Shown piece after piece: positions 19,043-55,082 of a stretch of 64,000 bases of DNA (positions are counted from its first letter, which is position 1; each line of letters opens with the position of its first letter). The stretch lies in IMG/VR virus record IMGVR_UViG_3300046001_006061, positions 2,928-66,927 of that record; one strand, 5' to 3'. This DNA is from a virus. A model generated the notes under the pieces. It had not been told where the DNA came from. It worked only from the letters and a program-made list of their open reading frames with translations, and did no database searches. Made by a program: the position numbers and the translations under genes.

Positions 19043-19050
19043 TATATTTG
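19043..19050 (+). promoter_or_regulatory. TATATTTG promoter directly upstream of the cassette array
   Basis: TAnnTTTG, 10 nt before the first TAAC. Confidence 0.7.
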
Positions 19051-19060
19051 TAGGAGAAAA

Positions 19061-19145
19061 TAACGGGCGGACGGTTTGGGCAGGCTGCAAACCTGACCAA
19101 CTTTCCACCCTAACCAACATCGCAGCTTGCTTAAACCGTATGTTA
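19061..19145 (-). repeat. attC-like site 1
   Basis: TAAC GGGCGG ACGGTTTGGGCAGGCTGC...GCAGCTTGCTTAAACCGT AT GTTA. Confidence 0.75.
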
Positions 19146-19204
19146 GAAGCAGTTAATTAAACCTTGTGCGTGGGGTTCACGCAAGTAAATTAGAAAATAA
19201 AATT

Positions 19205-19531
19205 ATGACATTTATTCATCAGCCAACAGAATTTGAAAAACAAAAAAATGATAAAGATTTTATAGAAAGATTGAAATCATTTTGTAAAAACCAATTAGAA
19301 GAAAAACCAAAAAAAATGAGTAATAAAGATAGAATTGATTATATCTCATTCCTTCATAAGCAAAATTTGAATGGAAGAGAAGATGAGGATACGCTTTTTG
19401 AAGCTGGTATAGAAGCTGGCATAACAGAAACAGAAGAGTTTATGTTAGAATTTATTGTTAGTTTAAATCTTCCATTTACTGAAGATGAAATTACGGAAAT
19501 GTTTAATAAATTTAAAGCAAATGCAGAATAA
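19205..19531 (+). CDS. cassette 1 ORF a, hypothetical
   Basis: ATG 19205 after the leader shared with cassette 8. Confidence 0.65.
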   Translation: MTFIHQPTEFEKQKNDKDFIERLKSFCKNQLEEKPKKMSNKDRIDYISFLHKQNLNGREDEDTLFEAGIEAGITETEEFMLEFIVSLNLPFTEDEITEMFNKFKANAE

Positions 19532-19802
19532 AACATACAGTGGGATACTAATTAAATATGTTAGAGATAACAATATGATTATTTGGAAAATAGAAGAATC
19601 ACTAGCTGCTTTAAATATTTATGTCGATTGTAAAGATGAAGATAAACTAACCGATTTAGATAATGAACGAAAAGTATATTTCAAACTCAAAAAAGTATTT
19701 ATGGGTAGAGAATATGGCGAAGATATGAATATGAATTTAGCATATAACCTAAGTTTTGAAATAAATGTCCAAGCGCAAAAGGCGGAAGCAAGCAAGGTTT
19801 AA
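19521..19802 (+). CDS. cassette 1 ORF b, hypothetical
   Basis: Overlaps the ORF a stop; ends in the shared 3' flank. Confidence 0.6.
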   Translation: MQNKTYSGILIKYVRDNNMIIWKIEESLAALNIYVDCKDEDKLTDLDNERKVYFKLKKVFMGREYGEDMNMNLAYNLSFEINVQAQKAEASKV

Positions 19803-19814
19803 TTTATTGCTTTC

Positions 19815-19941
19815 TAACGGTATCGGGGCTTGTAGCAGTAGGGGATTTTGAAAAACTACTGCTCAATTAACCACCACAGCCCAATAGAAGTAAAAGGCTC
19901 AAAACTTGCACTTCTGCCCCTATTGCTACAGACCCTTGTTA
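19815..19941 (-). repeat. attC-like site 2
   Basis: TAAC GGTATC GGGGCTTGTAGCAGTAGGGG...CCCCTATTGCTACAGACCCTT GTTA; near-copy of site 11. Confidence 0.8.
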
Positions 19942-19988
19942 GCGGTAGGTTTTTTCAAATCAAGGGTTAATTTTAAAAGTTACATAAA

Positions 19989-20234
19989 ATGTTCAAAAAG
20001 AAAATAACATATTTTGTACTATATTTTTTAGAAGGAAATTCAAATAATAAATATAGTGTTTATATGACATCTAATGTAGAAAGTACAAACTCCTCCGAAT
20101 TTAATTTGCATTTTAATAATCAATGCAAATTAAATTACGAAGAAAATACGGGTTTAAAAACTGATGAAGTGGTTATCGAAAGCATTCAAATGATTTCTAT
20201 TCAAGTTTCTTTGTTTGGGTGGCGTATTTTTTAA
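19989..20234 (+). CDS. cassette 2 ORF, hypothetical
   Basis: 81 aa between sites 2 and 3. Confidence 0.6.
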   Translation: MFKKKITYFVLYFLEGNSNNKYSVYMTSNVESTNSSEFNLHFNNQCKLNYEENTGLKTDEVVIESIQMISIQVSLFGWRIF

Positions 20235-20243
20235 ACTTACCGC

Positions 20244-20370
20244 TAACGTTTTCGGGCTTTGTGTCCGTTGGCGACTTAAACTACAAATGTTAAATTGAAA
20301 AACAAATATTGATATGAGTACAAAAATTAAATCGAAGAACGAAACCGCCAATGGCACAAAACCCGTGTTA
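20244..20370 (-). repeat. attC-like site 3
   Basis: TAAC GTTTT CGGGCTTTGTGTCCGTTGGCG...CGCCAATGGCACAAAACCCG T GTTA. Confidence 0.8.
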
Positions 20371-20607
20371 GGCGAAGTTATTGATAGCAAGGTTAATCAA
20401 TTGCTGTCTTTAAGTGATGAATTTATATTCCCTGCTTACTATTCACATTCAGGTAAAACAATGTGGAAGATTTCAAATGTTTATACAAAATACGGTTCTG
20501 AAACATTGGTTTTGTGTGGCGTTGATGAAGGTATTGAAACAGCAATTGATTTGGCAATAGAACACATTTCAAAAGCTAAAGATAAGTTCTATGGTGTCGG
20601 TGTATAA
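20314..20607 (+). CDS. cassette 3 ORF, hypothetical (starts inside site 3, stops on the TAA of the next TAAC)
   Basis: ORF track plus site coordinates. Confidence 0.65.
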   Translation: MSTKIKSKNETANGTKPVLGEVIDSKVNQLLSLSDEFIFPAYYSHSGKTMWKISNVYTKYGSETLVLCGVDEGIETAIDLAIEHISKAKDKFYGVGV

Positions 20608-20730
20608 CGTTTTGCGGCTTTATGCAGTAGCGGACTTAAACCAAAAAATTTGATATGGAAAACGAAATTATAAATACAGATAAAAGTTCATTAGAACCAC
20701 GAAATCCGCTATTGCTTAAAGCTGATGTTA
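20605..20730 (-). repeat. attC-like site 4
   Basis: TAAC GTTTTG CGGCTTTATGCAGTAGCGGA...TCCGCTATTGCTTAAAGCTG AT GTTA. Confidence 0.8.
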
Positions 20731-20966
20731 TAAGCCGTTTTGGTGAATGTAAGTACAGTTGTCAATTAACACACGAGCCAAGTTGGTTTCATACAATATT
20801 GATTAAAGACTTTAGCATTTATATCGAGGAATGGATGGATGATGAAGATAATGAAATTTGTGCAACAGTTTTTACAGGCGAGAAAAAAAATGCTAATGGC
20901 TTTGCAAATACCAACTTGGCTTTATTGTTGAATGATATTGAGGAGTTCGTTAAAAATGGCTTATAA
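20655..20966 (+). CDS. cassette 4 ORF, hypothetical (starts inside site 4)
   Basis: 103 aa; stop is the TAA of TAAC at 20964. Confidence 0.65.
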   Translation: MENEIINTDKSSLEPRNPLLLKADVISRFGECKYSCQLTHEPSWFHTILIKDFSIYIEEWMDDEDNEICATVFTGEKKNANGFANTNLALLLNDIEEFVKNGL

Positions 20967-21057
20967 CGTTTGGTGGCTTTGTGTCTGTTTGCCCCTTGCG
21001 CAAAGTTTCAAGTTTACCACAAATGTTGATGGGGCAAATAGCACAAAACCGCTGTTA
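20964..21057 (-). repeat. attC-like site 5
   Basis: TAAC GTTT...GGCTTTGTGTCTGTTTGCCCC...GGGGCAAATAGCACAAAACCGCT GTTA; near-copy of site 7. Confidence 0.8.
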
Positions 21058-21095
21058 TGCGTAGTAGCGGATTATTAACGATAAATTTAATTAAA

Positions 21096-21563
21096 ATGAT
21101 GAAACATAAACAAAAACAACCTTACGGATGCGGTTTATATGCCGTTGCAAACGCCTGTAATTTAGACAACTTTATTACAGATGAAAGACTTGAAAAAAGT
21201 AAAACAGGAAATGTAATAGGGCAACTTTCAAAGTGGATGCAAGAAGATGGACACCCATTTTACATTGATACGCTTTACTATAACCACGTTGGAAAAAAGT
21301 TACCTAAAACGGCATTGGACTATAAACCAAGTGGAGAAGGAATACATTTTTTGCCTGTGCTTATAAATGTAAGATTTTCTGATGAAGGGAAAAATCATTT
21401 AGTAGGTGGGAAAATTGACAAAGAAGGCAAATTATATTTATACGATAGCCTTAAAGAAGAAATGATTGAAACAACGATGAGGCAGGTAAACAGAATGTAT
21501 CATCACGTTTACGGGTTGTTTTTGTTTATGGGTGTTGATAATGGAGAATATGTCTTTATATAG
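21096..21563 (+). CDS. cassette 5 ORF, papain-like cysteine peptidase
   Basis: Q..PYGCGLYAVAN nucleophile helix, NHLVG, LYLYDSL (Cys-His-Asp). Confidence 0.6.
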   Translation: MMKHKQKQPYGCGLYAVANACNLDNFITDERLEKSKTGNVIGQLSKWMQEDGHPFYIDTLYYNHVGKKLPKTALDYKPSGEGIHFLPVLINVRFSDEGKNHLVGGKIDKEGKLYLYDSLKEEMIETTMRQVNRMYHHVYGLFLFMGVDNGEYVFI

Positions 21564-21584
21564 CAGTAACGTAGCTATTACGCA

Positions 21585-21672
21585 TAACGTTTTGCGTATA
21601 TGAGAAGTGGCACTTGCAGAATGTTGAAAGTTAGCACGAATGTTTCTGTGCCATTTCTTATATACGCTGTTA
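21585..21672 (-). repeat. attC-like site 6
   Basis: TAAC GTTTT GCGTATATGAGAAGTGGCAC...GTGCCATTTCTTATATACGC T GTTA; near-copy of site 10. Confidence 0.85.
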
Positions 21673-21708
21673 TAAGCAGCCTTTTTATTAACTTAAATTA
21701 AAAACAAA

Positions 21709-21981
21709 ATGAGAAACTTTAAAACAAAAATTGAAGGACACGAAGAAGAGTTTGACTTTGAATGTTACGAAAATACAGAATCAATAGAAATTGGAGATAA
21801 ATATATTTTCTTTTTTGGTGGTATTGCAGACGTTCAAGTATGCGACTCTGAAAATGTAAAAGAAGAAGTAAACAAACACAATAGACCTTATCAGTACGAT
21901 AAAATTGATTTAACACACAATTTTTGGACTAAGTGTTTTAAAATTAAAGAAACAAATTTTGACCTTAGTACGGTTTTATAA
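21709..21981 (+). CDS. cassette 6 ORF, hypothetical
   Basis: 90 aa. Confidence 0.65.
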   Translation: MRNFKTKIEGHEEEFDFECYENTESIEIGDKYIFFFGGIADVQVCDSENVKEEVNKHNRPYQYDKIDLTHNFWTKCFKIKETNFDLSTVL

Positions 21982-21990
21982 GGTTGCTTA

Positions 21991-22084
21991 TAACGTTTTG
22001 CGGCTTTGTGTCTGTTTGCCCCTTGCACAAAAGTTTCAAGTTACCACAAATGTTGATGGGGCAAATAGCACAAAACCGCTGTTA
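21991..22084 (-). repeat. attC-like site 7
   Basis: Same family as site 5. Confidence 0.85.
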
Positions 22085-22136
22085 TATGCCGTTGTGGGTT
22101 GTCAAAAGGAATTTTAAAACTTAATAATTAAAAAAT

Positions 22137-22742
22137 ATGTATAAATGTAATATTTGTCCTGCTGAATTTAAAACAGAAAAGGGATTATCAAACCACAAAT
22201 GTAGGTGGATATGTAAAATATGTGGAACTAAACTTACCACACCAAAAGGTTATGATAGGCACTTGCAAAATCATAGTAACTCTGAAACAAGAAAAAAAGA
22301 ACAACAGATAAAGCAGGTTGAAGCACAAAAACAAAAAGATGAAGAATTTGCAATAAAATATCAAAAATTGATTGATATGGGTTTATTTAATCCATTACAT
22401 AATTCTGGCGATAGTGTTATTGTTTCTACATATATTGTAACAAAGCCAACTCACGAACAAAGGTTTAATAGAATGGTAAGAGTTCGGTATGAAGAGGAAA
22501 GAAGGTATGATGTATTTGATTGGATAATAGACAAAGCAATAGAACCAACAATTAACGATTTGTATAGGATTAATAATTGTATTGAGTTGAATAAACAATA
22601 TCCAATTCAATATTTAACAAAGAATTTTAAAGTAATTTCTGAATCCAATATTTTTCAAGATAGAACCAAAGCTATTGATGAGGCAACTAATAAAGGTAAA
22701 CAATATAAAGAGGCTTGTGACTTTGCTTCTATGTGTCGCTAA
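22137..22742 (+). CDS. cassette 7 ORF, tandem C2H2-type zinc-finger protein
   Basis: YKCNICPAEFKTEKGLSNH and CKICGTKLTTPKGYDRHLQNH. Confidence 0.7.
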   Translation: MYKCNICPAEFKTEKGLSNHKCRWICKICGTKLTTPKGYDRHLQNHSNSETRKKEQQIKQVEAQKQKDEEFAIKYQKLIDMGLFNPLHNSGDSVIVSTYIVTKPTHEQRFNRMVRVRYEEERRYDVFDWIIDKAIEPTINDLYRINNCIELNKQYPIQYLTKNFKVISESNIFQDRTKAIDEATNKGKQYKEACDFASMCR

Positions 22743-22752
22743 CAATGGCATA

Positions 22753-22840
22753 TAACGGGCGGACGCTTGCATTGCAGGTTGCAAAAACAATAATTATTCC
22801 TTACAGTAACTTGTCAGCAACTTGCTGCAAGCGTATGTTA
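22753..22840 (-). repeat. attC-like site 8
   Basis: TAAC GGGCGG ACGCTTGCA..GCAGGTTGC...GCAACTTGCTGCAAGCGT AT GTTA; family of site 1. Confidence 0.75.
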
Positions 22841-22899
22841 GAAGCAGTAAATTAAACCTTGTGCGTGGGGTTCACGCAAGCAAATTAGAAAATAAAATT

Positions 22900-23307
22900 A
22901 TGAAATCAACAGAAGAAGAAAAGAAAAAAGAAAAAATAGTTCAATCCGCTTACGGTAATCTTTATGAAAAATATAAAATAAACATAAATAAATACAGCGG
23001 ATTCACAGATACAAAAGAGGAAAAATTAGGATTCTCGCCATTGTCTGATGAAATTGAATATTTGGATTTTACTTGTAGTAATTTATGGAGACCAATTTCG
23101 TTAAAAGGAATAGAAAATAATAATGGGTGGATACGTATTGATAATAAACAATCAATTGAAAAAATAAATTATGTTGGATGGGCGTTCATACGTGTTTGTC
23201 GTGAAAATATTGAAGATATTTATTGTGAATATGTAGCAAATTCAATAGGCTATTTCTATGCTACTCATTACCAACCAATAATAAAACCTAAATCACCTCA
23301 TTTTTAG
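22900..23307 (+). CDS. cassette 8 ORF, phage hypothetical with DUF551-like C-terminus
   Basis: NNNGWIRI...ATHYQPIIKP. Confidence 0.6.
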   Translation: MKSTEEEKKKEKIVQSAYGNLYEKYKININKYSGFTDTKEEKLGFSPLSDEIEYLDFTCSNLWRPISLKGIENNNGWIRIDNKQSIEKINYVGWAFIRVCRENIEDIYCEYVANSIGYFYATHYQPIIKPKSPHF

Positions 23308-23348
23308 CGCAAAAGGCGGAAGCAAGCAAGGTTTAATTTATTGCTTTC

Positions 23349-23426
23349 TAACGTTTTCGGGCTTGGCGAAGTGGCTTTTGTGCGTTGGCTTGTGTGTCGG
23401 GAAGCCATTTTGCCAAACCCGTGTTA
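23349..23426 (-). repeat. attC-like site 9
   Basis: TAAC GTTTT CGGGCTTGGCGAAGTGGCT...AGCCATTTTGCCAAACCCG T GTTA; arms shared with site 12. Confidence 0.85.
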
Positions 23427-23486
23427 TACGCTGGCACGGGTAATTTAGTAGGAACTTAATTTGAAACACAAATAAAAATCAAAGCA

Positions 23487-23792
23487 ATGGCAACAGCAAT
23501 TTATGAAATACCGAACTCCGTAAAGGAAATGTTTGAACAAGGCGAAAATAGTTATCGCATAATTGACTATTCAATACAGGAAATGGACAATATCCAAAGT
23601 ATGCAACATTTCCTTGACTGCATAGGTGCAACAAGCGATAATATTGAAACAGACGATGGAACGCAAGTGGTAATTATTCATCCTGACTTTGACCACAAAC
23701 TTGTAATTGATAGTGGTGGGTTGGGCGATTTTTATTCTCACGGTTATGACGTAACTCTCTATTCGGAGACGGTCAGTAGTGCTTGCGTATAA
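23487..23792 (+). CDS. cassette 9 ORF, acidic hypothetical protein
   Basis: 101 aa; stop is the TAA of TAAC at 23790. Confidence 0.65.
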   Translation: MATAIYEIPNSVKEMFEQGENSYRIIDYSIQEMDNIQSMQHFLDCIGATSDNIETDDGTQVVIIHPDFDHKLVIDSGGLGDFYSHGYDVTLYSETVSSACV

Positions 23793-23877
23793 CGTTTTGC
23801 GTATATGAGAAGTGGCACTTGTAGAATGTTGAAATTTAGCACAAATGTTTCTGTGCCATTTCTTATATACGCTGTTA
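23790..23877 (-). repeat. attC-like site 10
   Basis: Near-copy of site 6. Confidence 0.85.
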
Positions 23878-23946
23878 CCTGCTGGTGCGGTTAATTTAGT
23901 AGAATTTTGATTTGAAAACGAATAGAAAATTTAAAAAGTTTTAGAG

Positions 23947-24192
23947 ATGGAAACACAAAAAATGTATGGAGTAGAATATAAAACAGATAGCAGTTCTACT
24001 TATGAAATATTTGAAAATTACGATGATGCGTTAGCTTTTGCTAATAGTAATGAAAATGCTATGTTTTTATTTACAGCAGACTTTAATAAGGACAGAGTTT
24101 ATTTAGATAGTGAAACTTGGAATTACGATGATTTTACCGACACTTTTATTAACCAAGAAATAATTGAAACTTATGAAATATATGGGAAGTAA
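23947..24192 (+). CDS. cassette 10 ORF a, acidic hypothetical protein
   Basis: 81 aa, D/E-rich. Confidence 0.6.
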   Translation: METQKMYGVEYKTDSSSTYEIFENYDDALAFANSNENAMFLFTADFNKDRVYLDSETWNYDDFTDTFINQEIIETYEIYGK

Positions 24193-24940
24193 GGCGAGAT
24201 TTAGTAAAGAGATTTTGCCGATAATATTAAAAGACAGAACAGCCGACCAATGGTATGTTGAGCCATTTGCAGGTGGAATGAACGCAATTTGTGATGTAGA
24301 TGGCAATAGACTTGCTAATGATAAAAACTACCACTTAATTGAAATGTGGAAAGGATTAACAAATGGCGTTAAATACCCAACAGACATACCAAAAGATTTG
24401 TATGACCTTGCAAGAGATGTTTATAATGGTAGAGAAACAAGGTTTGAACACAAAATGAATATGGCTGATGATATGGTGGGTTGGATTGGTTGGATGGGTT
24501 CTGCAAATGGTAGATTTTTTGATGGTGGATATTCTGGTAAATCAAATACCAAAATTGGAACGGTAAGAAATTACATTAAGGAAGCAATAAGTAATATTGA
24601 AAAGCAATTACCAAAGATGGTAGGTGTTAAATTTGAGAACAAAGATTATACTGAATTGCTATTACCCAATAACAGTATTATTTATTGCGACATTCCATAT
24701 CAAGGAACAAAACAATATTCAACATCAAAAGATTTTAACCATTCAAATTTTTGGAAATGGTGCAGAGAAAAGGCAAAGCAAGGACATACAATTTTTGTAA
24801 GTGAATACGAAGCACCTGCCGACTTTGAATGTGTTTGGCAAAAAGAGGCTAAATCTTCTTTATCGGCAAATGGTGTAATAGGTGGTAATAAGGTGAGTGT
24901 GGAAAAACTTTTTAAATTTTCTCCCACAAATGCTAATTAG
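24173..24940 (+). CDS. cassette 10 ORF b, Dam/D12-class DNA adenine methyltransferase
   Basis: KYMGSK, YVEPFAGG, AND.N, IYCDIPY, FVSEY. Confidence 0.9.
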   Translation: MKYMGSKARFSKEILPIILKDRTADQWYVEPFAGGMNAICDVDGNRLANDKNYHLIEMWKGLTNGVKYPTDIPKDLYDLARDVYNGRETRFEHKMNMADDMVGWIGWMGSANGRFFDGGYSGKSNTKIGTVRNYIKEAISNIEKQLPKMVGVKFENKDYTELLLPNNSIIYCDIPYQGTKQYSTSKDFNHSNFWKWCREKAKQGHTIFVSEYEAPADFECVWQKEAKSSLSANGVIGGNKVSVEKLFKFSPTNAN

Positions 24941-24964
24941 AAGCACGAATGTAGCACTTGCAGG

Positions 24965-25091
24965 TAACGGTCTGGGGCTTGTAGCAGAAGGGGAATTTGA
25001 AAAACTACTGCGCAATTAACCACCACAGCCTAATAGAAGTAATAAGGCTCAAAACTTCCACTTCTGCCCCTATTGCTACAAACCCTTGTTA
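24965..25091 (-). repeat. attC-like site 11
   Basis: Near-copy of site 2. Confidence 0.8.
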
Positions 25092-25139
25092 GCGGTTCGG
25101 GCTTGTTTTCACAAGGGTATAAATTTTAAATAAATAAAA

Positions 25140-25376
25140 ATGTCAGAGAAAAAAGTATCAGTTACCATTAAGTGTAAACAAGTAATGCACTTTGCTCAAA
25201 GTGTTGAAATGTCCGAAAGTGATTATGAGAAAATCAAAGATTTGGATTTTGAAGATGTCCACGAAATAAGAGAAAGAGAGCAGTATTCAGTTATTGAAGG
25301 ATATCTGAATTTTATGGATATTCTTGAAAGCGATGATGAATTTTTAGATGTCCAAATTACCAAAGATGAAGATTAG
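25140..25376 (+). CDS. cassette 11 ORF, acidic hypothetical protein
   Basis: 78 aa. Confidence 0.6.
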   Translation: MSEKKVSVTIKCKQVMHFAQSVEMSESDYEKIKDLDFEDVHEIREREQYSVIEGYLNFMDILESDDEFLDVQITKDED

Positions 25377-25400
25377 TAGGGTGTTTTTTAGCCTGACCGC

Positions 25401-25520
25401 TAACGTTTTCGGGCTTGGCGAAGTGGCTGAACGCGAAGCTAAATAGAATTACAAAACTTTAAAATTAAAAACGAATGATTGATAGAATTACTGAACAGCC
25501 ATTTTGCCAAACCCGTGTTA
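25401..25520 (-). repeat. attC-like site 12
   Basis: Arms as in site 9, longer loop containing the ATG of the next ORF. Confidence 0.85.
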
Positions 25521-26248
25521 GTGGCAGTACTTTTGTGAACGCAGACTGCTTTGATGTTTTTCCTTTTATTGAGGATAAATCAATTGATGCGATTATTTGC
25601 GATTTGCCTTATGGAACTACTGCTTGTAAGTGGGATAGTATCCTGCCATTAGACAAACTTTGGAATGAATACAAGCGTGTTTTAAAGCCAAACGGTGTTA
25701 TTTTACTTACTGCTTCGCAACCATTTACAACTGTTTTGATTGGAAATGATTTGAAAATGTTTAAGTATAATTTAGTTTGGGATAAAGTAGCTGTTACAAA
25801 TCCGATGTTGGCTAAAAAACAACCTATGAGATGCCACGAAGATGTATTGATTTTTTACGATAAGCAACCAACTTACAACCCACAAATGAGAGTAGGCGTA
25901 AAATGGAGTAGAGCAGGAAAAAAACAACATACAACAGATACTTTAGGGCAAAGCACGTTGTTTAATAATGGAAGCGATGAAAGTGAAATGAAATACCCTA
26001 AAAGTATTATCACATTTTCAAATGCTGACAAAACAAAAAACGAACATCCAACTCAAAAACCGATTGACTTAATGGAATGGTTGATTAAAACATATACAAA
26101 CGAAGGCGATATGGTATTAGACAATACAATGGGTTCAGGAACAACAAACTTGGCTTGTATTAAATTAAATCGCAAATCAATTGGAATAGAAAAGGAAAAA
26201 CAATATTACGATGTTGCTGTTCGGAGGGCTTCGGAGTATTGCCACTAA
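25475..26248 (+). CDS. cassette 12 ORF, N4/N6 (beta-class) DNA methyltransferase
   Basis: SIDAIICDLPYG, HPTQKP, VLDNTMGSGTT, GIEK. Confidence 0.92.
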   Translation: MIDRITEQPFCQTRVSGSTFVNADCFDVFPFIEDKSIDAIICDLPYGTTACKWDSILPLDKLWNEYKRVLKPNGVILLTASQPFTTVLIGNDLKMFKYNLVWDKVAVTNPMLAKKQPMRCHEDVLIFYDKQPTYNPQMRVGVKWSRAGKKQHTTDTLGQSTLFNNGSDESEMKYPKSIITFSNADKTKNEHPTQKPIDLMEWLIKTYTNEGDMVLDNTMGSGTTNLACIKLNRKSIGIEKEKQYYDVAVRRASEYCH

Positions 26249-26269
26249 CTATGTGATTGGCGCAACAAC

Positions 26270-54964: not shown

Positions 54965-55082
54965 TAACAGCACCCTTGCGAAAATTTGCTACCTCTCGGA
55001 ACTACTGCTCCTATTGGCTTTTTTCTGCGTTGACAACTTCGTGTTCCAATACCGCAAACTATCGCAAGGCTGCGAAACGTTA
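54965..55082 (+). repeat. attC-like site 13
   Basis: TAAC A GCACCCTTGCGAAAATTTGC...GCAAACTATCGCAAGGCTGC GAAAC GTTA; reverse-complement architecture of array sites. Confidence 0.8.

What the first reader, a model, noticed from the sequence alone, without database searches (positions are those of the whole stretch)
19137..23352. Same cassette chassis, different cargo (cassettes 1 and 8)
Seen: 19142-19207 and 22837-22902 (GTTA through ATG) match at 64/66 nt and include a TGCGTG/CACGCA hairpin. The 47-nt 3' ends 19772-19818 and 23306-23352 are identical. The enclosed ORFs are unrelated (two genes versus one DUF551-like gene), and divergence begins just after the ATG. Cassettes 2/11 and 9/10 show weaker shared leaders. 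Inference: genes are swapped into a pre-made frame exactly at the start codon, a clue to how gene cassettes are created. The cargo looks like ordinary phage genes.
Basis: partly seen in the sequence, partly recalled or inferred. Interest (0 to 1): 0.85.

Follow-up and report, generated by a model that had tools for sequence, protein, structure and literature searches.

The report
Reusable cassette ends, swapped phage genes
Two gene cassettes in a Flavobacterium-type phage, and a third in an unrelated phage, carry unrelated genes between near-identical ends, and these ends look like the two halves of one integron-like recombination hairpin, which could help test how gene cassettes are made.

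Summary
The leaders match at 64 of 66 nt and the tails at 47 of 47, and the cargos are unrelated. Neither refutation test is met. A third unrelated cargo (phrog_10841) sits on the same leader and tail in a phage that shares almost nothing else with this one.

The frame needs redrawing. Cassettes here run from TAA|C to TAA|C, with the hairpin upstream of its gene. Leader and tail are inverted repeats. In an excised circle they would flank the hairpin and extend it into one long rod. So the "chassis" is one extended attC-like end module, not two separate flanks.

The pattern is general:
- 411 gene units in 140 loci show gene-flanking inverted repeats.
- 23 of 61 unit pairs that share both ends have unrelated interiors. 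They include five other end-module families.

A Xer/IntI-like recombinase lies just downstream of such arrays in 52 of 55 loci. This contig encodes none.

How cargo is exchanged at ORF boundaries is not shown. I rate this a new variant of the integron kind. The first-stage scan had already noted the array, the inverted polarity and the end repeats on this same stretch.

The parts
19061..26249 (+). Whole array. It holds 12 imperfect hairpins (TAAC...GTTA), each followed by its gene or genes. It ends at CACTAAC|TATGTGAT.
   Evidence: The end junction is shared with the G001 phage. Homology with phage filifjonk9-1 stops exactly at 26249.
19061..19145 (+). Hairpin E0. It lies upstream of the leader of cassette 1 and belongs to that cassette (unit 19064-19817).
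   Evidence: Fold. Aligned with E7 and the G001 hairpin, 17 pairs are predicted and 8 carry changes on both sides.
19142..19207 (+). Leader of cassette 1. It consists of GTTA, a 20-25 nt inverted-repeat arm (19147-19166), a small hairpin (19167-19183) and an A-rich stretch ending in ATG.
19205..19531 (+). Cargo 1a, a 108-aa ORF with no family match.
   Evidence: One search found 6 relatives, one of which is the window's own sequence.
19575..19802 (+). Cargo 1b, an ORF of 75 aa (105 aa if counted from 19485). Its last 10 codons lie inside the shared tail.
   Evidence: Its C-terminal 13 aa match the end of the G001 cargo.
19772..19818 (+). Tail of cassette 1. Its 3' arm (19793-19812) is complementary to the leader arm, and it ends in TCTAAC.
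22753..22840 (+). Hairpin E7. It lies upstream of the leader of cassette 8 (unit 22756-23351).
22837..22902 (+). Leader of cassette 8.
22900..23307 (+). Cargo 8, a 135-aa ORF (phrog_27445). It is a complete member of a family of 120-140-aa phage proteins.
23306..23352 (+). Tail of cassette 8, identical to the tail of cassette 1.
26246..26257 (+). Array-terminal junction TAAC|TATGTGAT. It looks like a remnant of an attI-like site.
   Evidence: The same 12-mer stands at the array end in G001 and L002. Related arrays end in TAAC|TAT(T/A)ATATATA about 45-55 nt before a recombinase gene.

Best explanation
**What it is.** The region is an integron-like cassette array carried by a phage of a Flavobacterium-type host. 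Each cassette runs from TAA|C to the next TAA|C. It consists of an imperfect hairpin, a leader, one or two genes, and a tail. The genes lie on the strand that folds.

**The chassis.** The 66-nt leader and the 47-nt tail are the two outer halves of one palindromic end module. When a cassette is excised as a circle, tail, hairpin and leader become contiguous and extend the hairpin into one long rod. That rod is the extended attC-like recombination site plus the 5' untranslated region of the gene.

**Why it is conserved.** The module is what a tyrosine recombinase, and probably the expression machinery, needs. It therefore stays conserved while the gene inside turns over. This module now carries three unrelated cargos in two unrelated phages.

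**Shown.** The repeats, the three cargos, the unit limits, the gene-flanking complementarity, the recurrence of the pattern elsewhere, and the linkage of such arrays to a Xer/IntI-like recombinase.

**Inferred.**
- Circles form.
- That recombinase cuts at TAA|C.
- Cargo is replaced by recombination at the junction between the stem and the looped-out ORF. I favour illegitimate or template-switch events followed by selection for compact, working cassettes.
- This contig encodes no recombinase, so one must act in trans, or the array is no longer active.
For: 1. **Repeats and unrelated cargos.**
2. **Third cargo.** L001 ORF 222-677 matches phrog_10841 over residues 1-140 of 151. It sits between a leader that BLAST puts at 92-93% identity over 76-77 nt and an identical 47-nt tail. 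L002 is a near-identical copy of that locus with one tail mismatch.
3. **The two phages are otherwise unrelated.** blastn finds only the leader, the tail and one hairpin. tblastx finds four short segments.
4. **Unit limits.** Window and phage filifjonk9-1 share hairpin E11 plus the methyltransferase from GCTAAC (25399) to CACTAAC (26249). They differ on both sides.
5. **Complementarity is gene-flanking.** Over positions 5-24, a unit's own leader and own tail match at a mean of 10.7 of 20 (n = 411). Tail and leader flanking the same hairpin give 7.05 (n = 260). Random pairs give 7.65 (n = 2000).
6. **Circle-junction folds.** Predicted energies are -44.6 and -38.4 kcal/mol, against -28.9 and -23.4 for the same hairpins in their array context.
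7. **The upstream hairpins keep pairing.** Eight of 17 pairs change on both sides, although the hairpins are only 41-54 of 88-90 identical.
8. **Recurrence.** Of 61 unit pairs sharing both ends, 38 have related interiors and 23 have none. One of the 23 is too short to judge.
9. **Recombinase linkage.** 52 of 55 loci have a hairpin within 2 kb upstream of the recombinase gene, and 4 of 73 have one within 2 kb downstream.
10. **Polarity.** 244 of 268 hairpins fold better on the recombinase-sense strand. Unit ORFs lie on the same strand in 178 cases and on the opposite strand in 19. In the window, 10 of 12 hairpins fold better on the + strand.
11. **Array end.** A conserved TAAC|TAT... junction stands before the recombinase gene. 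The window has TAAC|TATGTGAT.
12. **Published precedent.** Qi et al. 2023 (PMC9892861; abstract, section 3.4 and passages read) report attC clusters without an integrase in virulent phages. One attC site of Polaribacter phage P12002L recombined with attI1 under IntI1. The P12002L intergenic hairpins that I read are short TAACG...GTTA elements. I could not see which of them the authors tested.
Against: - No recombinase gene was found in this contig (CheckV completeness 51%), in G001 (81%), or in the complete genomes of filifjonk9-1 and P12002L.
- The linked recombinases score below the curated cut-offs of every NCBIfam model. They lack a match to the IntI-specific insertion region.
- No canonical IntI was found in 5 host genomes that carry such hairpins.
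- The sense strand folds better. Canonical integrons fold the strand antisense to the cassette genes. Sense-strand folding would also fit an RNA-level role.
- The hairpins upstream of the three chassis copies have diverged far more than the leader and tail. A simple model of common descent plus cargo swap does not predict this.
- Hairpin similarity also breaks at GTTA. E5/E9 and E4/E6 are followed by unrelated leaders. So modules recombine at both ends of the hairpin, which a single crossover point does not explain.
- The 80 recombinase loci may be related phages, so part of the linkage may be inherited gene order.
- No circle, cleavage or excision was observed.
Confidence: 0.6

Rival explanations
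1. The elements act on RNA, like the PeSL cassettes of T4-type phages. Hairpins, leader and tail would be mRNA processing, stability or translation signals. Genes would be shuffled by ordinary homologous recombination between these repeated intergenic signals. The shared ends would then be shared regulatory sequence.
For: - The sense strand folds better: 10 of 12 hairpins in the window and 244 of 268 elsewhere. G.U pairs are tolerated in RNA.
- Start codons lie in some hairpin loops, and the leader runs to the ATG.
- Leader-tail pairing would close each ORF in a panhandle.
- There is a precedent. Arbiol et al. 2010 (PMC2839356, abstract read) describe promoter-plus-stem-loop cassettes that mediate modular shuffling and form mini-circles.
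Against: - The TAAC/GTTA core is invariant in 12 of 12 hairpins. Junctions between phages fall exactly at TAAC. Homologous exchange should break anywhere within a repeat.
- A tyrosine recombinase lies directly downstream of such arrays in 52 of 55 loci, with a conserved terminal junction.
- Sigma-70-type promoter-like sites number 23 against 34.0 +/- 5.0 in shuffles. Terminator-like sites number 3 against 3.3 +/- 1.9. Bacteroidota promoters are not covered by that scan.
- An RNA role may coexist with recombination.
Confidence: 0.15
2. A dedicated cassette-building process loads ORFs precisely between the halves of a pre-made empty frame. It might act at short motifs that bracket the cargo, such as ...GCGATGG at the start and GTGCGGTGGGC after the stop in other families.
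For: - In families A-D and in this one, the shared leader runs up to and includes the start codon. The shared tail resumes at or within a few bases of the stop (by eye; estimates).
- Similar short motifs bracket the cargo in families A-D, whose arms otherwise differ.
- Two cargos of this chassis and the family A cargos lack their own stop codon and use the tail's.
- The C8 cargo equals exactly one full ORF of a mostly non-cassette family.
Against: - No empty frame was found among the 53 units of 230 nt or less. All those that I saw printed enclose coding-length inserts, and the output was cut.
- The bracket motifs are absent from the cargo junctions of this chassis.
- The automated boundary estimate overshoots by up to about 40 nt in A-rich N-termini, so precision is not established.
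- In L239 the same gene family sits in another frame, possibly with some native upstream sequence.
- Selection for compact, functional cassettes could sharpen random junctions.
Confidence: 0.15
3. The two cassettes are a diverged duplication, or the similarity is chance.
For: None beyond the shared ends themselves.
Against: - The cargos show no similarity. They match different PHROG families or none.
- The ends are 97-100% identical while the interiors are unalignable.
- A third cargo sits on the same ends in another phage.
Confidence: 0.01

Closest known systems
Integron gene cassettes and CALINs (clusters of attC sites lacking an integrase), including those reported in virulent phages (Qi et al. 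2023, PMC9892861)
   Same: - The array holds small genes on one strand, separated by imperfect hairpins 78-127 nt long with conserved AAC...GTT cores.
- Each cassette's first bases are complementary to the far side of its own site, which is the signature of a circular intermediate.
- Cargos include orphan DNA methyltransferases.
- No integrase lies nearby.
- Many cassettes with different genes share one site family. I recall this as the hallmark of Vibrio chromosomal integrons; no call tested it.
   Different: - Genes lie on the strand that folds, so each hairpin sits upstream of its gene.
- End complementarity extends to 14-25 nt or more, against 6-7 nt in the canonical rule as I recall it. 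A recurrent G.T mispair stands at position 11.
- The conserved module reaches 66 nt to the ATG and 47 nt from the stop.
- The linked recombinase is a 265-280-aa Xer-like protein without the IntI insertion match.
- According to IntegronFinder 2.0 (PMC9024848, passage read), complete integrons are rare in Bacteroidetes.
PeSL regulatory cassettes of T4-type phages (Arbiol et al. 2010, PMC2839356; Comeau et al. 2014, PMC4122927, search listing only)
   Same: Repeated stem-loop elements flank non-essential ORFs in plastic regions of phage genomes. They are associated with gene replacement and with one-ORF mini-circles.
   Different: PeSLs are a sigma-70 promoter plus a terminator, and they shuffle by homologous recombination. 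Here no promoter or terminator enrichment was found. Junctions fall at a fixed TAAC, and a tyrosine recombinase is linked to the arrays.
Vibrio cholerae repeats and other species-specific attC families of sedentary chromosomal integrons (Ghaly et al. 2021, PMC8352920, passages read)
   Same: One conserved recombination-site family is attached to many unrelated genes. This is read as evidence that cassettes are built locally by an unknown genesis mechanism.
   Different: There the conserved part is the attC itself. Here the central hairpin varies, with compensatory changes, while the parts outside the core are conserved. The module also crosses between unrelated phages.

Membership tests
Canonical integron attC site / gene cassette | Conserved AAC...GTT triplets at the base of an imperfect hairpin (R'' RYYYAAC, R' GTTRRRY; consensus recalled) | tested here: met
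   TAAC and GTTA are present in 12 of 12 hairpins. By inspection, only some sites fit the full 7-mer consensus: GTTAGGC fits, GTTATAA does not.
Canonical integron attC site / gene cassette | Site length about 57-141 nt, with extrahelical bases on the recombined strand (recalled) | tested here: inconclusive
   Lengths of 78-127 nt fit. Bulges and a 5-nt versus 1-nt asymmetric spacer exist. They could not be equated with the canonical extrahelical G and T.
Canonical integron attC site / gene cassette | The cassette start is complementary to the R'' box of the cassette's own site (circular-intermediate signature) | tested here: met
   Own leader versus own tail gives 10.7 of 20 matches, against 7.05 for hairpin-flanking pairs and 7.65 for random pairs.
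Canonical integron attC site / gene cassette | The folded, recombined strand is antisense to the cassette genes, and attC lies downstream of the gene | tested here: not met
   The sense strand folds better in 10 of 12 and in 244 of 268 hairpins. The hairpin travels upstream of its gene.
Canonical integron attC site / gene cassette | Recognition by the IntegronFinder or HattCI attC models | not testable with these tools
   Neither model is available here. Rfam holds no attC family, and the array gave one chance-level miRNA hit.
Complete integron | An adjacent integron integrase that passes the IntI model and carries the IntI-specific insertion | tested here: not met
   PF00589 finds nothing in the contig. 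Array-linked recombinases elsewhere score 150-204 bits on TIGR02249 (cut-off 265), in two stretches that skip about positions 180-240 of the profile.
CALIN (attC cluster lacking an integrase) | At least two attC sites and no integrase nearby | tested here: met
   There are 12 hairpins and no tyrosine recombinase in 66.9 kb. This holds only if the hairpins are accepted as attC-type sites.
PeSL cassettes of T4-type phages | A strong sigma-70-like early promoter joined to a terminator stem-loop | tested here: not met
   Promoter-like sites number 23 against 34.0 +/- 5.0 expected. Terminator-like sites number 3 against 3.3 +/- 1.9. The scan does not model Bacteroidota promoters.

The most novel reading that the evidence does not exclude
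These arrays belong to an undescribed integron-like system of Bacteroidota phages and hosts. It would have its own Xer-like recombinase, an attI-like site (TAAC|TATTATATATA) and hairpin-first cassettes expressed on the folding strand. Its cassettes would be built, and rebuilt, by loading whole ORFs between the two halves of reusable palindromic end modules. The chassis families would then be snapshots of cassette genesis in progress.
Probability: 0.3. Interest if true: 0.9.

Novelty: new variant of a known kind. Interest (0 to 1): 0.74.

Why it matters
How integron cassettes are made is an open question: how does a gene become joined to a recombination site with almost no spare sequence? Ghaly et al. 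2021 (PMC8352920, passages read) speak of a native mechanism of cassette genesis without naming one.

Here one end module is joined to three unrelated genes, with junctions at the ORF limits. Five further families behave the same way. That yields sets of recent sister cassettes in which junctions can be compared and donors sought.

The hosts (Flavobacterium) and some of the phages (Muminvirus) are culturable. Nilsson et al. 2020 (PMC7077304, passages read) link differences in methyltransferase gene content among Muminvirus phages to plating efficiency. Cassette turnover may therefore have a measurable phenotype.

The linked Xer-like recombinase and the terminal junction give a concrete enzyme and site to test.

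Tried and rejected
**Searches that found nothing.**
- The leader 27-mer found nothing in viral contigs. The G001 copy has one mismatch in it; the 23-mer then found L001 and L002.
- The leader 23-mer and the tail 25-mer found nothing in metagenome contigs. The tail 25-mer found nothing in genome contigs.
- BLAST of leader and tail against GenBank phages found nothing. The chassis is therefore rare in what is held.
- Close relatives of C1 ORF1 were not found in viral contigs.
- Rfam gave nothing useful.

**Recombinase searches.**
- The canonical IntI model (TIGR02249) found only Xer-like hits below cut-off in 5 host genomes with hairpins.
- PF00589 found nothing in G000, G001, filifjonk9-1 or P12002L.

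**Methods that failed or needed correction.**
- The detector misses the short (about 50-60 nt) hairpins of P12002L.
- The first count of shared-end pairs double-counted opposite-strand alignments. One search corrected it, and the 164/97 figures are withdrawn.
- The automated breakpoint estimator overshoots in A-rich sequence. I use it only as a rough guide.
- A search for empty frames among 53 short units found none in the part of the output I could see.

**Ideas considered and dropped.**
- IS200/IS605-type or REP/RAYT-type single-strand transposition. No such gene was seen, and the TAAC/GTTA bases pair with each other.
- Cruciform resolution, which stayed pure speculation.
- Intrinsic terminators, because no T-run follows the hairpins.

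**Not seen.** Supplementary files of Qi et al. 2023 and Nilsson et al. 2020 were closed. I do not know which P12002L hairpins were assayed, or which methyltransferases vary.

**Literature searches for an existing description.** Searches found none beyond the phage CALIN report.

Full report
**Setting.** The window is 64 kb of a 66.9-kb IMG/VR phage contig, classed linear, with CheckV completeness 51%. G+C is about 32%, and a tail-collar domain protein and other phage genes are present. Between 19061 and 26249, twelve imperfect hairpins separate small genes that all lie on the + strand. Each hairpin begins with TAAC and ends with GTTA. My detector requires TAAC...GTTA and a local arm alignment score of at least 26. 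It finds these twelve and one more at 54965-55082, and nothing else in the 64 kb.

The leader 19142-19207 matches 22837-22902 at 64 of 66 positions. The tail 19772-19818 equals 23306-23352 at 47 of 47. The enclosed proteins are unrelated: BLASTP E = 0.52 and 11. The C8 ORF matches phrog_27445, and the two C1 ORFs match nothing.

Two details change the picture.
- The tail is not simply non-coding. C1 ORF2 reads ten codons into it, while the C8 stop codon overlaps its first two bases. The two reading frames differ.
- The 5' 20-25 nt of the leader and the 3' 20-25 nt of the tail are inverted repeats of each other, 90-95% complementary (I4, I7, I13, I14).

**A third cargo in another phage.** The tail 30-mer and a leader 23-mer each hit one IMG/VR contig, L001, which lies in the 33-kb record G001. 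The leader 23-mer also hit a near-identical copy of that locus, L002. There a hairpin is followed by the same leader (92-93% identity over 76-77 nt by BLAST), a 151-aa ORF, and the same tail.

- The ORF matches phrog_10841 over residues 1-140. It is unrelated to both window cargos apart from its last 13 residues, which are encoded by the tail and the 9 nt before it.
- Like C1 ORF2, it lacks its own stop codon and ends in ...KAEASKV*.
- The two phages share nothing else at the DNA level except one hairpin. tblastx finds only four short protein-level segments.

The cargos are not homologous, and the flanks occur with other genes. The chassis is rare. It is absent from GenBank phages, and the exact patterns tried found nothing in metagenome or genome contigs.

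**Where a cassette begins and ends.** The cultured Flavobacterium phage filifjonk9-1 shares hairpin E11 plus the methyltransferase gene with the window. Homology starts at GCTAAC (25399) and stops at CACTAAC (26249). Beyond that point filifjonk continues with another hairpin, while the window continues with TATGTGAT.... G001 ends its array with the chassis tail followed by the same TATGTGAT. So the unit is hairpin + leader + gene + tail, bounded at TAA|C on both sides. The array is (hairpin-gene)n with no terminal hairpin. Cassettes 1 and 8 are then 19064-19817 and 22756-23351.

Their upstream hairpins E0 and E7, and the one in G001, share the same architecture. They are only 41-54 of 88-90 identical, and 8 of 17 predicted pairs carry changes on both sides. 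Pairing is therefore preserved while the sequence drifts or is exchanged.

**What the chassis is.** If such a unit is excised as a circle, tail, hairpin and leader become contiguous. On the + strand the joined stretch folds into one long rod at -44.6 (C8) and -38.4 (C1) kcal/mol. The same hairpins with their actual array neighbours give -28.9 and -23.4. The chassis is therefore best read as the two outer halves of one extended palindromic site, plus a small hairpin and an A-rich run before the ATG.

The general rule holds well beyond this window. A degenerate pattern for the commonest hairpin arms hit 68 loci in bacterial genome contigs. Most are Bacteroidota, many of them MAG contigs that may be phage, but two Pedobacter isolates are included.

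In these loci plus the window, G001 and filifjonk, I defined 411 gene units between consecutive hairpins in 140 loci. Matches over positions 5-24 were as follows:

| Comparison | Mean matches of 20 | n |
|---|---|---|
| A unit's own leader vs its own tail | 10.7 | 411 |
| Tail and leader flanking the same hairpin | 7.05 | 260 |
| Random pairs | 7.65 | 2000 |

Complementarity that flanks the gene rather than the hairpin is what a circular intermediate opened at a fixed point leaves behind. I recall this as the integron cassette rule. In 9 of the 15 window and G001 units listed, position 11 shows leader G opposite tail T.

**Same ends with different cargo is recurrent.** Among all pairs of the 411 units, 61 share at least 30 nt at 85% identity or more at both ends. 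Of these, 38 have related interiors. The other 23 show no interior similarity by blastn or tblastx at 1e-3, and one of the 23 is too short to test (which corrects). Besides this chassis they fall into five families:

| Family | Loci | Distinct cargos |
|---|---|---|
| A | L051, the L124 type, L068 | three |
| B | L067, L129, L165, L162, L104 | five |
| C | L074 against methyltransferase cargos | at least two |
| D | L105, L192, L110 | three |
| E | L015, L120 | two |

Shared ends reach 45-107 nt. By eye, the common leader in families A-D runs up to and includes the start codon (...GCGATGG, GCGTGGG, GGGATGG). The common tail resumes at or next to the stop with AAGTGCGGTGGGC followed by a T-run that pairs with the A-run of the leader. 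Family A cargos read through into the tail. An automated estimate of these limits overshoots in A-rich sequence and is only a rough check.

**The cargo is an ordinary phage gene taken whole.**
- The C8 protein aligns from first to last residue with 15 relatives of 120-138 aa.
- Of 75 viral loci encoding relatives, 70 gave a full ORF. Of those, 68 have no hairpin within 150 nt on either side.
- One locus (L239) holds the family in a cassette with a different leader and tail, possibly keeping a little native upstream sequence.

**Which enzyme.** The contig has no tyrosine recombinase. Neither do G001, filifjonk9-1 or P12002L. Clustering the ORFs of the hairpin loci brought out a family of 265-280-aa recombinases next to arrays in 11 loci.

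- They carry PF13495 plus PF00589.
- Their best NCBIfam model is NF040815 (site-specific tyrosine recombinase/integron integrase) at 167-216 bits, under its cut-off of 220.
- They score 150-204 bits on the integron-integrase model TIGR02249 (cut-off 265), in two stretches that leave out the region around profile positions 180-240.

I then ran the reverse test by fetching 80 viral loci with this recombinase, of 310 found.
- Of 55 loci with at least 2 kb held upstream, 52 have a hairpin within 2 kb upstream of the gene. Of 73 with at least 2 kb held downstream, 4 have one within 2 kb downstream.
- Of 268 distinct hairpins there, 244 fold better on the recombinase-sense strand. The mean difference is -2.24 kcal/mol (Wilcoxon p = 2e-40).
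- The longest ORF of the inter-hairpin units lies on that strand in 178 cases against 19.
- The last cassette could be resolved in 30 of the 37 loci examined. In 24 of those 30 the array ends in TAAC followed by TAT(T/A)ATATATA-like sequence, about 45-55 nt before the recombinase start. The window's TAAC|TATGTGATTGG and G001's TAAC|TATGTGATATAAG resemble it.

So there is a platform: promoter, (hairpin-gene)n, an attI-like junction, then the recombinase. The window carries the array without the enzyme. One caveat applies. The 80 loci are relatives of one recombinase at 55-100% identity, and several are near-duplicates, so part of the linkage may be inherited gene order.

**How it compares with what is known.** Qi et al. 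2023 (PMC9892861; abstract, section 3.4 and passages read) reported attC clusters without an integrase in virulent phages. One is in Polaribacter phage P12002L, with methyltransferase cassettes, and one of its sites recombined with attI1 under IntI1. The P12002L intergenic hairpins that I read are short TAACG...GTTA elements upstream of genes.

The kind is thus known in outline. My searches and the passages I read found no description of these features:
- the hairpin-first polarity;
- the long end modules;
- their reuse with different cargos;
- the linked Xer-like recombinase and its terminal junction.

IntegronFinder 2.0 (PMC9024848, passage read) notes that complete integrons are rare in Bacteroidetes. 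The Muminvirus paper (PMC7077304, passages read) mentions neither hairpins nor an integrase, but it links differing methyltransferase content to plating efficiency. PeSL cassettes of T4-type phages (PMC2839356, abstract read) are the nearest phage analogue in effect. Their defining promoter-terminator make-up is not seen here.

**What remains open.**
- No circle or cleavage has been seen.
- Sense-strand folding fits an RNA role as well as a DNA one.
- Hairpins also recombine away from their leaders at GTTA. E5/E9 and E4/E6 are followed by unrelated leaders.
- The central hairpins of the chassis have diverged far more than its arms.
- The process that replaces a gene between fixed ends is unknown. 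I favour recombination at the stem-loop junction followed by selection for compact working cassettes. A targeted loading process is not excluded.

**Verdict.** I rate it a new variant of a known kind and score its interest at 0.74.

Noticed in passing
L280-L359 (for example L281, L287, L289, L300); also L109, L143, L158, L173: A 265-280-aa Xer/IntI-like tyrosine recombinase sits directly downstream of hairpin arrays, on the same strand. This holds in 52 of 55 loci with upstream sequence held. The arrays end in a conserved TAAC|TAT(T/A)ATATATA junction about 50 nt before the recombinase start codon.
   Followed up: partly
window 26246-26257; G001 (L001 minus strand, about 213-202): Two otherwise unrelated phages end their arrays with the same 12-mer, TAACTATGTGAT. 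It looks like a remnant of the attI-like junction, without a recombinase gene behind it.
   Followed up: partly
Loci L045, L067, L074, L104, L105, L110, L124, L129, L155, L162, L165, L192 (unit ends shown): The motif GTGCGGTGGG(C) stands right after the cargo stop codon in four end-module families whose arms otherwise differ. A similar GTGCGTGGGG lies inside the window's leader (19166-19175). Its function is unknown.
   Followed up: no
window 54965-55082: A thirteenth hairpin of the same type stands alone in the minus-strand structural region.
   Followed up: no
window 19043-19050: TATATTTG lies just upstream of the first hairpin. It fits the Bacteroidota -7 promoter motif TAnnTTTG as I recall it. 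The array may be read from this promoter.
   Followed up: no
window 20314, 20655, 25475: The start codons of three array ORFs lie inside hairpin loops, so the 3' arm of the hairpin is coding. The beta-class methyltransferase gene at 25475-26248 is one of them.
   Followed up: no
window 22137-22742: One cassette gene encodes a 201-aa protein with two C2H2-type zinc fingers at its N-terminus (PF13894, E = 5e-8). This is unusual for a phage.
   Followed up: no
L001 845-1294 and 1831-2217 (+ strand of the locus, opposite to the array): Two cassettes of the G001 array carry predicted membrane proteins on the strand opposite to the other cargos. Orientation inside a frame is therefore not fixed.
   Followed up: no
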